This document shows, one piece after another, positions 7,136 to 28,772 of a stretch of DNA of 64,000 nucleotides. The stretch spans positions 224,001 through 288,000 of the IMG/VR virus record IMGVR_UViG_3300005326_000040. The stretch is one strand, 5' to 3'. Each line of letters opens with the position of its first letter. Position 1 is the stretch's first letter. The notes under the pieces are model-generated. The model was not told the origin of the DNA and did no database searches. It was given only the letters and a program-made list of their open reading frames with translations. The DNA comes from a virus. Lineage: Duplodnaviria > Caudoviricetes. A program made the position numbers and the translations under genes.

Positions 7136-7277
7136 AGGTCGTTGGTCGAGTGGTCGAAGACGCCTCACGGTGAGTGGGGAGTGGCACGGTTTCCGGAAGC
7201 CGAACAGAAACAGTCTGGATGTTCGCGCGAACAAAAAGATTGTTGCCACCTCATTGGTTCAAATCCAGTACGGCCTA
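7136..7277 (+). ncRNA. tRNA-like RNA with giant (73-nt) branched variable arm
   Basis: All four tRNA arms pair; anticodon loop CGGTGAG lacks U33. Confidence 0.75.
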
Positions 7278-7288
7278 CTATTAAATTA

Positions 7289-7365
7289 GGGACGGTAGCT
7301 CAGTTGGTTAGAGCGTTTGCCTGATAAGCAAAAGGTCGGCAGTCCGATTCTGCCTCGTCCCACCA
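7289..7365 (+). tRNA. tRNA-Ile(GAT)
   Basis: GGGACGG/TCGTCCC acceptor, TTTGC-CT-GAT-AA-GCAAA, CCA encoded; T-loop TCCGATT. Confidence 0.9.
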
Positions 7366-23856: not shown

Positions 23857-23886
23857 TTGACAATCTAGGCATACACTGATATATAG
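23857..23886 (+). promoter_or_regulatory. sigma70-like promoter for Y-RNA/TROVE operon
   Basis: TTGACA (23857-62), 17-nt spacer, TG-a-TATATA. Confidence 0.65.
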
Positions 23887-23912
23887 ACTGGGCAGACTGA
23901 AAACGAATGTAT

Positions 23913-23977
23913 TCGGGTAGTGACGTTTCGGCTACTTCATTGATAACGAAAACCAACCGGAACAATTTTTCTCCCGA
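23913..23977 (+). ncRNA. short Y-RNA-like unit 1
   Basis: GGGTAGTGA...GTTTCGG/CCGGAAC stem...GGCTACTTC...TTTCTCCCGA. Confidence 0.75.
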
Positions 23978-24006
23978 TTTTTCTTCGTAAAGATTTAAAC
24001 GATTGT

Positions 24007-24135
24007 GGGCAGTGATCGTATCGGTTACTTCTTGATTAGGAAAAGTGGTTCGAATCCACCTACCAATTGGTGATCATATCAAAGATTGGCGCGGAGCCCT
24101 ACTGGCGAAGGGCATCTCCGATACACCTTTCTCCC
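24007..24135 (+). ncRNA. YrlA-like Y RNA with permuted tRNA module
   Basis: Same terminal motifs; T-arm GTGG-TTCGAAT-CCAC, loop-closed acceptor-like stem, D-arm GCCCT-ACTGGCGA-AGGGC. Confidence 0.85.
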
Positions 24136-24154
24136 CTTTTGTTTTTTAAGGGTT

Positions 24155-24224
24155 TAGGGAAGTGAGATTTTGGTTACTTCAATACAAACCATTGGCAAAA
24201 CCACCAGAATCAATTTTCTCCCTA
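24155..24224 (+). ncRNA. short Y-RNA-like unit 3
   Basis: TAGGGAAGTGA...GATTTTGG/CCAGAATC stem...GGTTACTTC...TTTCTCCCTA. Confidence 0.75.
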
Positions 24225-24247
24225 TTTTTCTCCTATAAAGGAAGTGA

Positions 24248-25858
24248 GTGAAAGTCATGAGTAAGTTTTTTCATAACAAGGCTGTTTCTCGTACGGATAG
24301 CGAATCTCACGTTAATTTCATGGGCGGAAAGTCATTTGATATTTCCAACCCAATTGTGAAGCTGCGTATTATGGCTTCTTCTTCTTTCTTTGGCGAGCCG
24401 ATGTATTACAATGACGCCAAGGAAAATAGTAAGGCGGCAAACAGTTATATTGACAGCGTAAATCGCAGCTATCTTATCGAAATACTTGGCAATGCTATTC
24501 CTCCTACTGTTGGAAAAACTCCGGCAGAACTTATGGAAGAAGCGATTGATAATGCTTTAAGCTATTCTGTAGAAGGTACTTTGCGAGAGGCTGTTCGCCT
24601 TCGTAATGAAGAAAACATGCGAACAACGCCACAAGTAATTCTTGTGCGTGCTGCTCATCACAAGTCGGCCAAGGGGACCGGTCTTGTAAACCTTTATTCT
24701 AAGGATATTATCAAGCGTGCAGATGAACCGTCTGTTGGGCTTGCATATCATGTATATCGCTATGGTAAGGCTTGTCCTATTCCGAACAGTCTAAAGAAGG
24801 CTTGGAGAAATTCTCTCCAGGGATTCAATGATTATTCTCTTGCGAAGTATCGTATGGAGAATAAGGAAGTTAAGACTGTTGACGTTGTTAATTTGGTCCA
24901 TCCCAAGTCTTTTAACATTGACAAATTAATGAAGGATCAGCTTCGTAATACTGAAAACACTTGGGAAGCTATTATTTCAGCGGAAGGTTCCAATAAGGAA
25001 AGTTGGACAAAGGCTCTGGATGTAATGGGGCACATGGCCCTCTTAAGGAATTTGCGCAACCTAATTGAAAAAGGCGTTGAGCATGATCTATACTTAGGTC
25101 AGCTTGTAGAAGGCGCACCAACAGGAAAGCAGTTCCCGTTCCGATATTATAGCGCTTACAATGTCATCAAGCAGCTTGCAGGCTCCAATGGTAGAGTTCT
25201 TGATGCTCTTGAAGAATGTATGGAGCTTTCTATTGGTAATATGCCGAAGTTTGACGGTCGATTGATGTCTCTTTGTGATAATTCAGGTTCTGCACAAAGC
25301 GCTACAACCTCGTCCGTAGGGACAATGCGGATATCACAGATTGCTAACCTTTCAGCAGTGATTGCGGGCAAGTGTGCAACTGAAGGTCACATTGGGGTTT
25401 TTGGTGATTCTTTACAGACGTTTGAGATTCGCAAGAAGTCTTCAATTTTCGAGCAGACCGAAAAGGCAGATAATATCGGCCATACAATTGGGCAGGGCAC
25501 TGAAAACGGTATTTGGTTGTTTTGGGATAAAGCCATCAAAGAGAAGCAGCACTGGGACCATGTTTTTATCTTCTCGGATATGCAGGCGGGGCACGGTGGA
25601 CTGTATGGCTTGAATCATAGGCATTATCAGGATTATCGCTGGCATGGCACGAACATGATTGATGTGCCGAAGTTGATTAATACGTATCGCAAGCAGGTTA
25701 ATCCTAATGTAATGGTTTATTGCACGCAAGTTGCGGGTTACAGCGATACGATTATGCCTGAGTTTTACGATAAGACTTTTATACTTTCCGGATGGTCGGA
25801 ATCCTTGTTTAGATTCGCCTCAGAAATGTCAAAAATCTTTGTTCCTCAAAAACAATAG
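24248..25858 (+). CDS. rsr: Ro60/TROVE-domain RNA-binding protein
   Basis: NFMGG, FFGEPMYY, MALLRNLRN, FPFRYYSAY, vWA MIDAS DNSGS; 536 aa. Confidence 0.92.
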   Translation: MKVMSKFFHNKAVSRTDSESHVNFMGGKSFDISNPIVKLRIMASSSFFGEPMYYNDAKENSKAANSYIDSVNRSYLIEILGNAIPPTVGKTPAELMEEAIDNALSYSVEGTLREAVRLRNEENMRTTPQVILVRAAHHKSAKGTGLVNLYSKDIIKRADEPSVGLAYHVYRYGKACPIPNSLKKAWRNSLQGFNDYSLAKYRMENKEVKTVDVVNLVHPKSFNIDKLMKDQLRNTENTWEAIISAEGSNKESWTKALDVMGHMALLRNLRNLIEKGVEHDLYLGQLVEGAPTGKQFPFRYYSAYNVIKQLAGSNGRVLDALEECMELSIGNMPKFDGRLMSLCDNSGSAQSATTSSVGTMRISQIANLSAVIAGKCATEGHIGVFGDSLQTFEIRKKSSIFEQTEKADNIGHTIGQGTENGIWLFWDKAIKEKQHWDHVFIFSDMQAGHGGLYGLNHRHYQDYRWHGTNMIDVPKLINTYRKQVNPNVMVYCTQVAGYSDTIMPEFYDKTFILSGWSESLFRFASEMSKIFVPQKQ

Positions 25859-25887
25859 ATCAAACTTCCAATAAAAGAAAACACTTG

Positions 25888-25928
25888 AAACCTCCTGCTT
25901 TTTGTTCTTAAAACAGGAGGTTTTCTTC
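25888..25928 (+). terminator. intrinsic terminator after TROVE
   Basis: AAACCTCCTG/CAGGAGGTTT stem followed by T-rich tract. Confidence 0.7.
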
Positions 25929-26014: not shown

Positions 26015-26051
26015 TTGACAAAAACGCGCATAGCATGGTATATACTATACT
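26015..26051 (+). promoter_or_regulatory. sigma70-like promoter
   Basis: TTGACA (26015-20) then GGTATATACTATACT. Confidence 0.6.
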
Positions 26052-27354: not shown

Positions 27355-27756
27355 ATGACGAAAAAAATGAAGAGCGAAGGTGTTGATCATAGGCATCCAG
27401 CTGATTATATTGTGTTTTTTAGACAATCAGACGCCAAAAGATGTAGAAATGAATGTGATTGGGTTCTTGAAAACACAGAAACAACAGAGATTGTTGCCCA
27501 CGGTAGCCTAGAGGAAATGATGGAGCTATCTAAAACATATCCAAACTCTCGTCGGGCGACATGGGCGGAAGATACATTAAGATATAAGAGCGGGATATTT
27601 TATCAAGATTATTTTATGGAGTCAGTTTTTAGTAGTATCGATGATAAGATTAAGTATGCTGATGGTTGGGATGGTAGCATACGTGAAGCTGAAGCAAAAG
27701 ATAACTGGGATTATTTCACCAAACTCAACGCGGAGCCAAAAGACGATGGCGACTGA
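27355..27756 (+). CDS. hypothetical protein
   Basis: GGAGG/AAGGA RBS before ATG 27355. Confidence 0.6.
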   Translation: MTKKMKSEGVDHRHPADYIVFFRQSDAKRCRNECDWVLENTETTEIVAHGSLEEMMELSKTYPNSRRATWAEDTLRYKSGIFYQDYFMESVFSSIDDKIKYADGWDGSIREAEAKDNWDYFTKLNAEPKDDGD

Positions 27757-28273
27757 AACAGAATTCAAGTTCACGGTTAATAAAGACCTTCTTCCGTCTT
27801 TATCAGATGCTTTATTTCGTCCGATAAATATCAAACAATTTTACCTTTCAGTTGGGGATTCATATTCTCCAGAAGTTCGAGTAAGGATTGAAGATGGCGT
27901 AAATTATCATCATGCGGAAATGACCATTAAAAGTGCCGTAGCCGACTATGTTAGGAAAGAAGTTTCTATACCAATAGAACCGGAAAAAGTTGAAGATCTT
28001 TTAGAAATGAAGGTTGGGCATATTATTGAAAAAACACGGTATCTTTTTACAATGACTGGCGCTCATTCTCCTCAGCTTGCCGGTAAGACTTTATGGGAAA
28101 TCGATATATATAAAGGCGCAAACGAAGGATTAATAATAGCTGAGTTTGAGATTCCTAGGAACTTCGAGACAGCGTATAGTTTTACGCCTCCAGCATGGGT
28201 TCTTGAAGATGTAACTAGAATGCCTAAATATAAGAATTCTCATCTAGCTTTGACGCCTTTTGTTCGGTGGTAA
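27746..28273 (+). CDS. CYTH-domain protein
   Basis: ETEFKF (ExExK), RVR, IEKTRY, WEID, AEFE. Confidence 0.9.
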   Translation: MATETEFKFTVNKDLLPSLSDALFRPINIKQFYLSVGDSYSPEVRVRIEDGVNYHHAEMTIKSAVADYVRKEVSIPIEPEKVEDLLEMKVGHIIEKTRYLFTMTGAHSPQLAGKTLWEIDIYKGANEGLIIAEFEIPRNFETAYSFTPPAWVLEDVTRMPKYKNSHLALTPFVRW

Positions 28274-28274
28274 A

Positions 28275-28772
28275 ATGGATAAAATCATAAAAAATTTGTA
28301 TTTAGGCAATATCAAAGATGGACAAAACTGTCTTCTTGAAGGCGGATATGCTGTATTGAGTGTTGGAGAAGAGTTTAACGAATTTGGCGGGGAGGATGGC
28401 GTTGTCAGAATTCCATTGAGGAATCCAACCGATTGCGATTGGAAGAATATTCCAATGTGGGATAAGACTGGTGACGAGATTTTGAATTGGTTGGAGGTTG
28501 GGATGAAGTTTATTTCATCTCATATCAAAGAGAAACCAGTAATTGTTCATTGTATGGCAGGCAAGTCTCGTTCAGTGTCGTTTATTTGGGCCTATTTGAT
28601 GAGTTGTGGTTGTGAACCAGTATACGCATATCGAATAATAAAGAAAGCCCGCCCTATTGCTGAACCACATTTTGGGTTTTTGAAGAGCATTTTAGGTTGG
28701 TTTGGATTTGACAAAGTACAAACTGACGACATAATAGAAAACATCAAAGAAATTAATAAGAATGGTGGCTGA
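28275..28772 (+). CDS. dual-specificity phosphatase
   Basis: VHCMAGKSRS P-loop, LYLG, R....P..GF. Confidence 0.9.
   Translation: MDKIIKNLYLGNIKDGQNCLLEGGYAVLSVGEEFNEFGGEDGVVRIPLRNPTDCDWKNIPMWDKTGDEILNWLEVGMKFISSHIKEKPVIVHCMAGKSRSVSFIWAYLMSCGCEPVYAYRIIKKARPIAEPHFGFLKSILGWFGFDKVQTDDIIENIKEINKNGG

What the first reader, a model, noticed from the sequence alone, without database searches (positions are those of the whole stretch)
23857..25928. Self-contained phage Ro60-Y RNA operon with three Y-RNA-like units (two short, one tRNA mimic)
Seen: between a TTGACA/TATATA promoter and the TROVE start are three units sharing 5' GGG(T/C/A)AGTGA, internal GG(C/T)TACTTC and 3' TTTCTCCC. The inner stems differ in sequence but keep pairing: GTTTCGG/CCGGAAC, GTATCGG/CCGATAC, GATTTTGG/CCAGAATC. 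That covariation is a signature of RNA structure. The middle unit (24007-24135) inserts a T-arm, a loop-closed acceptor-like stem and a D-arm, in that order; the two flanking units replace this module with short A/C-rich loops. A terminator follows TROVE. Known: bacterial Rsr genes are flanked by Y RNAs, and YrlA is a circularly permuted tRNA mimic. Inference: the phage builds several distinct Ro RNPs, perhaps as decoys for tRNA-targeting nucleases or to redirect PNPase/RNA decay. The short units may be an under-described Y RNA class with a GGGNAGTGA Ro-binding helix.
Basis: partly seen in the sequence, partly recalled or inferred. Interest (0 to 1): 0.9.

Follow-up and report, generated by a model that had tools for sequence, protein, structure and literature searches.

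The report
Phage Ro60 gene with three Y-RNAs
A 338-kb phage carries one operon with three small structured RNAs and a Ro60-type ring protein; this protein-RNA partnership is already known in bacteria and phages, but these RNAs have a variant protein-binding "handle" that the Rfam YrlA model does not detect.

Summary
Between a strong promoter (23857-23885) and a Ro60-fold TROVE gene (24257-25858) lie three RNA units: 23913-23977, 24005-24137 and 24155-24224. Each has a variable closing stem, G-N-AGUGA, an inner stem, GG(C/U)UACUUC, an apical module, the inner-stem return, UCUC and the closing-stem return.

A covariance model built from related units finds only these three sites in the 64-kb window. 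It finds 165 sites beside related TROVE genes in phages and bacteria, all on the gene's strand, with strong compensatory changes in both stems. In five whole bacterial genomes, all 12 hits lie at the TROVE locus.

The handle type follows the protein clade. AGUGA goes with close relatives, and the published CGAA-type handle (CGAAGCGG) goes with distant ones. Both keep UACUUC and UCUC. These are therefore YrlA/YrlB-type Y RNAs with a variant handle, not a new kind of system.

Unit 2 has a clear T arm, an irregular closed stem and a reduced D arm. Rfam YrlA does not detect it, so "tRNA mimic" is only partly supported.

Expression and protein binding are untested. The decoy and PNPase ideas remain speculation. 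This scan has met similar phage Ro60/Y-RNA arrays on other DNA.

The parts
23857..23885 (+). Sigma-70-type promoter: -35 TTGACA (23857-23862), 17-nt spacer, extended -10 TG-N-TATATA (23877-23885)
   Evidence: Read. The pattern occurs twice in the window against 0.05 expected. The second copy heads the next gene at 26015.
23913..23977 (+). Unit 1, short Y-like RNA. Closing stem UCGG+G / C+CCGA; handle G-U-AGUGA (23917-23923); inner stem GUUUCGG / CCGGAAC; CUACUUC; A-rich loop; UCUC.
   Evidence: R1 59.4 bits, E 6e-14, full model length; sequence.
24005..24137 (+). Unit 2, long Y-like RNA. Handle G-C-AGUGA (24009-24015); inner stem 24018-24024 / 24118-24124; UUACUUC 24025-24031; V-like stem; T arm 24045-24059 (GUGG-UUCGAAU-CCAC); irregular closed stem 24060-24093; reduced D-like arm 24096-24113 (GCCC / GGGC, loop with GG); UCUC 24130-24133.
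   Evidence: R2 41.5 bits, E 2e-6, but only the handle and T arm align well. R1 19.6 bits. The proposed fold is -38.1 against an MFE of -39.0 kcal/mol, with D arm p 0.98, T arm 0.57 and inner stem 0.53. No Rfam YrlA hit.
24155..24224 (+). Unit 3, short Y-like RNA. Closing stem UAGG+G / C+CCUA; handle G-A-AGUGA; inner stem GAUUUUGG / CCAGAAUC; UUACUUC; A/C-rich loop; UCUC.
   Evidence: R1 56.7 bits, E 3e-13.
24240..24247 (+). Fourth copy of GGAAGUGA, 9 nt before the TROVE start codon. It is the likely ribosome-binding site and a possible site for autoregulation.
   Evidence: Only 1 of 71 long + strand ORFs in the window has AGTGA in its 22 nt upstream, and it is this one. The same motif sits before the start codon in 9 distinct viral relatives and in L173.
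24257..25858 (+). Ro60-type TROVE + vWA protein, 533 aa, with the MIDAS motif DNSGS
   Evidence: Pfam TROVE E 5.9e-11. PHROG 850, RNA-binding protein, E 1.9e-40. AF2 model pLDDT 80.7; the top 13 PDB fold matches are all Ro60. NCBIfam Rsr equivalog scores only 18.8 bits against a cut-off of 900.
25888..25923 (+). Long hairpin (stem AAACCUCCUG / CAGGAGGUUU) after the stop codon; the probable terminator of the operon
   Evidence: One search lists it on the - strand. On the + strand the tail is T-rich but interrupted.

Best explanation
The locus is one transcription unit that makes three Y-type noncoding RNAs and the Ro60-like ring protein that binds them.

Each RNA closes on itself through its 5' and 3' ends. 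Above a variable closing stem sits a conserved bulged 'handle': 5' G-N-AGUGA facing 3' UUCUC. Above that is a 7-9 bp stem, then a conserved single-stranded UACUUC, then a variable apical module. I infer that the handle is the docking site of the TROVE protein, as the conserved bulged helix is in animal and Deinococcus Y RNAs.

The apical modules differ. Units 1 and 3 carry a short A-rich loop. Unit 2 carries a V-like stem, a T arm, a closed stem and a reduced D arm. By analogy with Rsr/Y RNA/PNPase and with phage phiLo Ro60/Yrl/host PNPase, each RNA would tether or gate the ring protein for a different partner. The partners must come from the host, because the phage encodes neither PNPase nor RtcB.

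Shown here: the sequence architecture, the stems, the exclusive linkage to TROVE genes, the Ro60 fold, and the fact that handle type follows protein clade. Inferred: discrete processed RNAs, protein binding, and the role of the apical modules.
For: - Architecture: read directly.
- Family size: 165 R1 hits beside related TROVE genes, 68 viral and 97 bacterial, all on the gene's strand.
- Covariation on a structure-blind MAFFT alignment of 54 short units: 80% of cells paired against 56% when shuffled; score 0.60 against 0.16; 0 of 500 shuffles reach it. Each closing-stem pair shows GC, CG, UA and AU.
- Covariation on the model-fitted alignment: 90.7% paired, and all 8 inner-stem pairs show double changes.
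- Specificity: in the window and in the whole phage genome, only this locus is hit. In five whole bacterial genomes of 2.5-13 Mb, 12 of 12 hits lie inside the TROVE locus.
- Handle tracks protein clade: AGUGA is found in 70 of 89 loci whose TROVE is at least 50% identical, and in 1 of 52 loci below 45%. In the latter group, A(A/G)G(C/U)GG, which includes the published CGAA handle, is found in 40 of 52.
- Protein fold: matches phiLo Ro60, Rsr, Xenopus and human Ro60 over its full length.
- Permuted form: in Sorangium the handle helix is closed by a loop while the tRNA-like acceptor end is open. This shows that AGUGA and UUCUC belong to one helix.
- Literature: Y RNAs upstream of Ro60 and processed from one precursor in M. 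smegmatis; at least two Y RNAs per species, one of them a tRNA mimic (PMC4201824). Phage phiLo Ro60 binds two upstream Yrl RNAs and host PNPase (PMC12135203).
Against: - No RNA data exist. The only public runs holding the sequence are DNA metagenomes, so discrete 65-130-nt RNAs are not shown.
- No binding data exist.
- The single units do not fold better than shuffled sequence.
- AGUGA, UACUUC and UCUC are invariant, so covariation cannot show how they pair or whether they contact the protein.
- AGUGA could also pair with UUACU, in competition with the inner stem.
- Rfam YrlA does not reach its threshold on any unit of this clade.
- The protein is far from the Rsr equivalog, so its behaviour may differ from that of characterised Ro60 proteins.
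Confidence: 0.8

Rival explanations
1. The three units are not free RNAs but cis-acting parts of the TROVE mRNA leader. They would be protein-binding sites or attenuators through which the TROVE protein controls its own synthesis.
For: - They lie between the promoter and the start codon.
- Each is followed by a U-rich run.
- A fourth GGAAGUGA overlaps the ribosome-binding site, which is unusual for this phage and recurs in relatives.
Against: - In relatives, units also lie downstream of the gene (L004 4135-4290 and L028 6040-6253; L113 4122-4691).
- Some relatives have up to five units.
- In Sorangium one unit is a tRNA-shaped RNA with an encoded ACCA end. That fits a processed stable RNA.
- Published bacterial Y RNAs are cut from a common precursor (PMC4201824).
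- The two readings are not exclusive.
Confidence: 0.1
2. Unit 2 is not a tRNA mimic. It is a Y RNA that carries only a T-arm-like hairpin plus unrelated hairpins, as reported for M. smegmatis YrlB.
For: - Rfam YrlA gives no hit at unit 2 even at E up to 10.
- My model of canonical long units aligns only the handle and the T arm.
- The closed stem is broken by internal loops.
- G replaces U8, and the D stem is joined to the closed stem by six nucleotides instead of two.
- ARAGORN recognised only 2 of 26 long units as tRNA after I re-cut them into normal tRNA order, and unit 2 was not one of them.
Against: - The T / closed stem / D fold costs only 0.9 kcal/mol over the MFE, and the D hairpin has probability 0.98.
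- The D loop keeps GG. The D stem GCCC / GGGC is a compensated version of the canonical GCUC / GAGC.
- The long unit of the closest relative keeps the same order with different stem sequences.
- Relatives have fully canonical modules in the same position.
Confidence: 0.4
3. The units are decaying tRNA-derived repeats or recombination scars with no function of their own.
For: - The phage carries many tRNA genes.
- Unit 2 contains a T arm.
- TROVE genes in relatives often sit beside tRNA arrays.
Against: - The short units have no tRNA features.
- Both stems are maintained by compensatory changes across phyla.
- Three motifs are invariant across phages, Myxococcota, Chloroflexota and Deinococcus.
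- Genome-wide hits are confined to TROVE loci.
Confidence: 0.02

Closest known systems
Bacterial and phage YrlA/YrlB Y RNAs with Rsr (Ro60): Salmonella Typhimurium, M. smegmatis, mycobacteriophages, Caulobacter phage CcrColossus, Bacillus phage G (Chen et al. 2014, PMC4201824; Wang et al. 2018, 10.1101/312249; Rfam RF02553)
   Same: - Several small RNAs on the same strand, next to a Ro60-type gene.
- The 5' and 3' ends pair into a stem that holds a conserved 5' motif.
- A pyrimidine-U-A-pyrimidine motif follows the stem.
- One RNA has modules in V, T, closed-stem, D order, alongside short hairpin-type RNAs.
- The RNAs are upstream of the gene and probably cut from one precursor.
   Different: - The 5' motif is G-N-AGUGA, not GNCGAA(N)G. 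Only three of its positions match.
- UACUUC and 3' UCUC are conserved in all units, including those with no tRNA-like part.
- The Rfam YrlA model scores 26-41 bits on relatives' long units (threshold 69) and gives nothing on this phage.
- The protein is not an Rsr equivalog (18.8 bits against 900).
- No rtcBA genes are present.
Thermus phage phiLo Ro60 with Yrl1 and Yrl2 (PMC12135203; PDB 9KOP, 9L5Y)
   Same: - A phage-encoded Ro60 with Y-like RNAs just upstream.
- It is the best sequence and fold match of the protein (E 1.2e-17; Foldseek E 1e-16, TM-score normalised to target length (TMt) 0.68).
- Neither phage encodes a PNPase: the paper reports none in phiLo, and one search finds none here.
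   Different: - The phiLo RNAs were defined by a CGAA motif in a large internal bulge and have no reported tRNA-like module.
- Here there are three units with the AGUGA handle.
- The proteins are only about 20% identical.
Deinococcus radiodurans Rsr with Yrn1/Yrn2 and PNPase (the RYPER complex), as summarised in PMC4201824
   Same: - A ring protein plus a Y RNA whose stem binds the protein and whose other end binds an effector.
- More than one Y RNA per genome.
- The fold match extends to Rsr (2NVO).
   Different: - The effector is unknown here.
- A Deinococcus species (L141) carries a 52% identical copy of this TROVE clade with an AGUGA-type unit. It is therefore a second lineage beside classical Rsr.

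Membership tests
Y RNA / Ro60 ribonucleoprotein (general) | Partner protein has the Ro60 fold: a HEAT-repeat ring plus a vWA domain with MIDAS | tested here: met
   Pfam TROVE. The DNSGS motif is invariant in 30 homologues. The top 13 PDB matches of the AF2 model are all Ro60, aligned over 472-603 columns.
Y RNA / Ro60 ribonucleoprotein (general) | The RNA's 5' and 3' ends pair into a stem that carries a conserved bulged helix | tested here: met
   The closing stem covaries: GC, CG, UA and AU all occur at each of four pairs. G5-C is invariant, N6 is unpaired, and A-U and G-C follow.
Y RNA / Ro60 ribonucleoprotein (general) | The RNA is bound and stabilised by the Ro60 protein | not testable with these tools
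   Indirect evidence only: exclusive genomic linkage, and handle type that follows protein clade.
YrlA (Rfam RF02553; Chen et al. 2014) | Encoded within about 4 kb of the Ro60 gene on the same strand | tested here: met
   All three units lie 33-344 nt upstream on the + strand. All 165 family hits are on the gene's strand.
YrlA (Rfam RF02553; Chen et al. 2014) | GNCGAA(N0-1)G motif near the 5' end | tested here: not met
   The units read G-U-AGUGA, G-C-AGUGA and G-A-AGUGA. By position, CGAAGCGG corresponds to x-G-N-A-G-Y-G-R, and intermediate forms exist.
YrlA (Rfam RF02553; Chen et al. 2014) | Conserved YUAY after the stem, at the start of the V region | tested here: met
   CUAC, UUAC and UUAC in the three units. 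The motif is nearly invariant across the family.
YrlA (Rfam RF02553; Chen et al. 2014) | tRNA-like domain: T arm, closed acceptor-like stem, UA, D arm with GG, and tertiary-pair nucleotides | tested here: inconclusive
   For unit 2 the T arm is canonical and the D-like hairpin keeps GG. But GA replaces UA, the closed stem is irregular, and the model aligns only the T arm. Units 1 and 3 lack the domain.
YrlA (Rfam RF02553; Chen et al. 2014) | Scores above the Rfam gathering threshold (69 bits) | tested here: not met
   No hit at the locus at gathering, at E up to 10 on the 500-nt region, or genome-wide. Relatives' long units score 26-41 bits.
YrlB / Yrn2-type short Y RNAs | A long hairpin with the Ro-binding motif and a small loop, with no tRNA-like domain | tested here: met
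   Units 1 and 3 have two stacked stems and an apical region of 25 and 30 nt that starts with the conserved (C/U)UACUUC. The published loops are described as pyrimidine-rich. Here the loop is A-rich after the UACUUC motif.

The most novel reading that the evidence does not exclude
The AGUGA / UACUUC / UCUC handle marks a distinct Y-RNA lineage, absent from Rfam, that has co-evolved with its own Ro60 clade. The clade is about 55-65% identical across jumbo phages, Myxococcota, Chloroflexota and others.

On one fixed handle the lineage displays interchangeable cargo: a bare A-rich loop, a hairpin, a T arm alone, a permuted tRNA, or, in Polyangia, a whole tRNA with an open CCA end. Phages would carry arrays of these as a set of adaptors that point one ring protein at several host RNA-handling enzymes.

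A copy of the handle's 5' strand on the gene's own ribosome-binding site would let free protein repress its own translation.
Probability: 0.3. Interest if true: 0.65.

Novelty: new variant of a known kind. Interest (0 to 1): 0.45.

Why it matters
Ro60 and Y RNAs are studied for RNA quality control and lupus autoimmunity, yet how bacterial Ro60 recognises its RNAs is known only from a few species and one motif (CGAA).

- This locus belongs to a large, strongly conserved clade in which the handle has changed together with the protein. That offers a natural experiment on recognition, and a covariance model that finds partners missed by Rfam.
- The minimal 65-nt units define the smallest conserved core: handle, stem and UACUUC. 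They are convenient for binding and structural work.
- For phage biology, this is another jumbo phage that brings a complete Ro60 particle but no nuclease or ligase, as phage phiLo does. That points to capture of host enzymes.

Tried and rejected
- Rfam at gathering on the whole window, and at E up to 10 on the locus: only tRNAs and noise.
- blastn of the locus against INPHARED phages: no match.
- A single-protein scan of IMG/VR found nothing. The alignment-based scan worked.
- ARAGORN on long units that I re-cut into normal tRNA order: 2 of 26 were called tRNA and unit 2 was not. The test depends on where the stem is cut, so it decides little.
- An AGUGA:UUACU local hairpin as the main fold (it is the MFE of unit 2): rejected as the main state. 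It excludes the inner stem, which covaries strongly, and the variable N and the first U of UUACUUC change without compensation. A transient alternative is not excluded.
- A link to ubiquitin-like, E1 or JAMM genes, suggested by earlier notes of this scan: none found next to this gene or in four relatives' loci.
- RtcB and PNPase in the phage: absent.
- Expression: no RNA run holds the sequence.
- The idea that GGAAGUGA before the start codon is just this phage's usual ribosome-binding site: not supported (1 of 71 ORFs). However, it is only one or two bases from the canonical GGAGGUGA that bacterial relatives use at the same position. It remains an open side observation.
Full report
**What is there**

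The window is bases 224001-288000 of a 338-kb IMG/VR virus record judged 97% complete. It came from a groundwater metagenome.

At 23857-23885 there is a TTGACA, a 17-nt spacer and TG-N-TATATA. This pattern occurs only twice in the 64 kb against 0.05 expected. The second copy heads the next gene.

Three units follow, at 23913-23977, 24005-24137 and 24155-24224. After them comes GGAAGUGA at 24240-24247, then a 533-aa ORF from the ATG at 24257 to 25858, then a long hairpin at 25888-25923.

The ORF has these properties:
- It is TROVE by Pfam (E 5.9e-11) and PHROG 850.
- It carries the MIDAS motif DNSGS, which is invariant in homologues.
- Its AlphaFold model (pLDDT 80.7) matches only Ro60 structures at E <= 0.001. 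These are phiLo phage Ro60, Deinococcus Rsr, Xenopus Ro60 and human Ro60.
- By sequence it is far from classical Rsr. The NCBIfam equivalog scores 18.8 bits against a cut-off of 900, and phmmer against the PDB finds only the phiLo protein.

**The units**

All three units have the same plan:
1. about four variable nucleotides (5' closing-stem strand);
2. an invariant G, one free nucleotide, then AGUGA;
3. a 7-9-nt stem strand ending in GG;
4. (C/U)UACUUC;
5. an apical module;
6. the returning inner-stem strand;
7. three to five linker nucleotides;
8. UCUC;
9. the complement of the first four nucleotides.

Taken singly, the units do not fold better than shuffles, so I turned to relatives.

**Comparative evidence**

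The protein has thousands of homologues at 55-65% identity. I fetched 80 viral loci and 80 bacterial loci. The bacterial set is mostly Polyangia/Sorangium, with some Chloroflexota, Armatimonadota-type MAGs, a Nitrospiraceae MAG and a Deinococcus.

A plain motif scan showed two to five copies of G-N-AGTGA ... G-N-TACTTC next to the gene in most close relatives, never on the opposite strand. A simple finder recovered the same 3' architecture in 105 distinct units.

Covariation results:
- A MAFFT alignment of 54 short units was made without any structural information. It shows every closing-stem pair as GC, CG, UA and AU. Overall, 80% of cells pair against 56% in shuffles, and the covariation score is 0.60 against 0.16. 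Both measures are reached by 0 of 500 shuffles and collapse when the partner column is slid.
- On the model-fitted viral alignment, 90.7% of cells pair and all eight inner-stem pairs show double changes. That alignment leans towards the model.

Covariance model R1 gave these results:
- It finds only the three sites in the window and only this locus in the whole phage genome.
- It finds 68 sites in the viral loci and 97 in the bacterial loci, all on the TROVE strand.
- In five whole bacterial genomes of 2.5-13 Mb, all 12 hits fall inside the TROVE locus. Only 150 first-look candidates per genome were scored.

**Relation to published Y RNAs**

Chen et al. 2014 (PMC4201824) define YrlA by four things. 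They are position beside Ro60, a 5' GNCGAA(N)G motif, a YUAY after the stem, and V, T, closed acceptor-like and D elements. They also describe short YrlB/Yrn2 RNAs and 22 phages with YrlA. The phiLo study (PMC12135203) found two CGAA-bearing Yrl RNAs upstream of a phage Ro60 and showed binding to the protein and to host PNPase.

Weaker R1 hits in loci with more distant TROVE genes show a graded series of handles: G-N-AGUGA, GAAGUGG, GAAGCGG, CCGAAGCGG. All keep GG(U/A)UACUUC and UUCUC. By position, CGAAGCGG equals x-G-N-A-G-Y-G-R. The AGUGA handle is therefore a variant of the published one, and UACUUC contains the published YUAY.

Handle type follows protein clade:

| TROVE identity to this protein | AGUGA-type handle | A(A/G)G(C/U)GG-type handle |
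|---|---|---|
| at least 50% | 70 of 89 loci | 3 of 89 loci |
| below 45% | 1 of 52 loci | 40 of 52 loci |

This is the best indirect evidence here that the protein reads the handle.

Rfam's YrlA model (RF02553, threshold 69 bits) scores relatives' long units at 26-41 bits and does not see anything at this locus.

**Unit 2**

Long units of relatives carry textbook modules: a V stem, a T arm, a closed stem, UA, and a GCUC...GG...GAGC D arm. RNAalifold recovers all of them with compensatory changes.

Evidence that unit 2 has the same modules:
- It has a canonical T arm (GUGG-UUCGAAU-CCAC).
- It has a hairpin GCCC-loop with GG-GGGC at the D position.
- The Y/tRNA-like fold is within 0.9 kcal/mol of the MFE. 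Pairing probabilities are 0.98 for the D hairpin, 0.57 for the T arm and 0.53 for the inner stem.
- The closest relative (65% identical protein, syntenic neighbours) has four units. One is long, with the same T / closed stem / D order but different stem sequences and an equally reduced D arm.

Evidence against:
- The closed stem is interrupted.
- GA replaces UA.
- Six nucleotides, not two, precede the D stem.
- A model of 13 canonical long units (R2) matches unit 2 over its full length at 41.5 bits, but it aligns only the handle and the T arm.

I therefore call unit 2 a divergent YrlA-type RNA whose full tRNA mimicry is unproven.

**How it probably works**

By analogy with characterised systems, the ring protein binds the bulged handle helix. 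The apical part then recruits or blocks other factors.

A permuted relative supports the assignment of AGUGA and UUCUC to one helix. In Sorangium cellulosum So ce56 the Rfam tRNA model (48 bits) spans a molecule with an open acceptor stem, an ACCA end, a D arm and a T arm. Its anticodon arm is replaced by UUCUC-stem-loop-stem-GCAGUGA...GUUACUUC. The handle is closed by a loop instead of by the RNA ends.

The invariant UACUUC sits unpaired at the top of the inner stem in the short units. It may contact the protein or a partner, but I cannot tell which.

The phage encodes no RtcB and no RNase PH/PNPase. It does encode one CCA-adding/poly(A) polymerase family enzyme elsewhere. Any nuclease or ligase partner would have to be the host's.

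**What is missing**

No RNA-seq run holds this sequence, so expression, processing and ends are unknown. Binding is untested. The supplementary YrlA tables of Chen et al. are not held, so I cannot exclude that some AGUGA-type RNAs were already listed there.

**Verdict**

- This is a Ro60/Y-RNA operon of a known kind. Its handle variant is not captured by Rfam, and I did not find it in the papers I could read.
- This scan has already reported similar phage Ro60/Y-RNA arrays on other DNA.

Noticed in passing
L105:2197-2334 (Sorangium cellulosum So ce56, NC_010162); similar in L083, L096, L101, L107, L114, L117, L121, L128, L131, L136, L140: A tRNA-shaped RNA with an open 7-bp acceptor stem, an encoded ACCA end, and canonical D and T arms. 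Its anticodon arm is replaced by a 75-nt insert that carries the Y-RNA handle in permuted order, closed by a loop. This is the circular permutation of YrlA. Rfam tRNA scores it at 48 bits with the insert. A short Y unit follows at 2343-2408. I did not find this form in the papers I could read.
   Followed up: partly
window 24240-24247; also L002, L009, L012, L017, L025, L029, L078, L173 just before the TROVE start: The 5' strand of the handle (GG-N-AGUGA) recurs 1-17 nt upstream of the TROVE start codon in several phages. In this window only 1 of 71 long ORFs has AGTGA in its ribosome-binding region. It may be an autoregulatory site, or just a near-canonical Shine-Dalgarno sequence, since bacterial relatives have GGAGGUG there.
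   Followed up: partly
window 27641-28273 and 28260-28772: Two genes downstream lie a CYTH (triphosphate tunnel) domain protein (E 2.5e-5) and a dual-specificity phosphatase (E 1.5e-16). Both are candidates for acting on RNA or nucleotide ends. No link to the Ro60 operon was tested.
   Followed up: no
window 7253-7319: The model of long Y units gave a weak hit (20 bits). It joins a T arm at 7253-7269 to the D arm of tRNA-Ile at 7289. The T arm belongs to an unusual tRNA-shaped RNA with a very long variable arm, which another first-stage note places at 7136-7277. ARAGORN does not call it.
   Followed up: no
L173:2400-2462 (closest relative phage): Between two Y units lies a piece that looks like the 3' half of a tRNA: a T arm GAUGG-UUCGAGU-CCAUC, then seven nucleotides, then GCCA. 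No 5' half is evident nearby.
   Followed up: no
L025, L041, L047, L089, L152, L157: In many phages and some bacteria, the TROVE gene and its Y units sit directly beside arrays of 5-12 tRNA genes.
   Followed up: no
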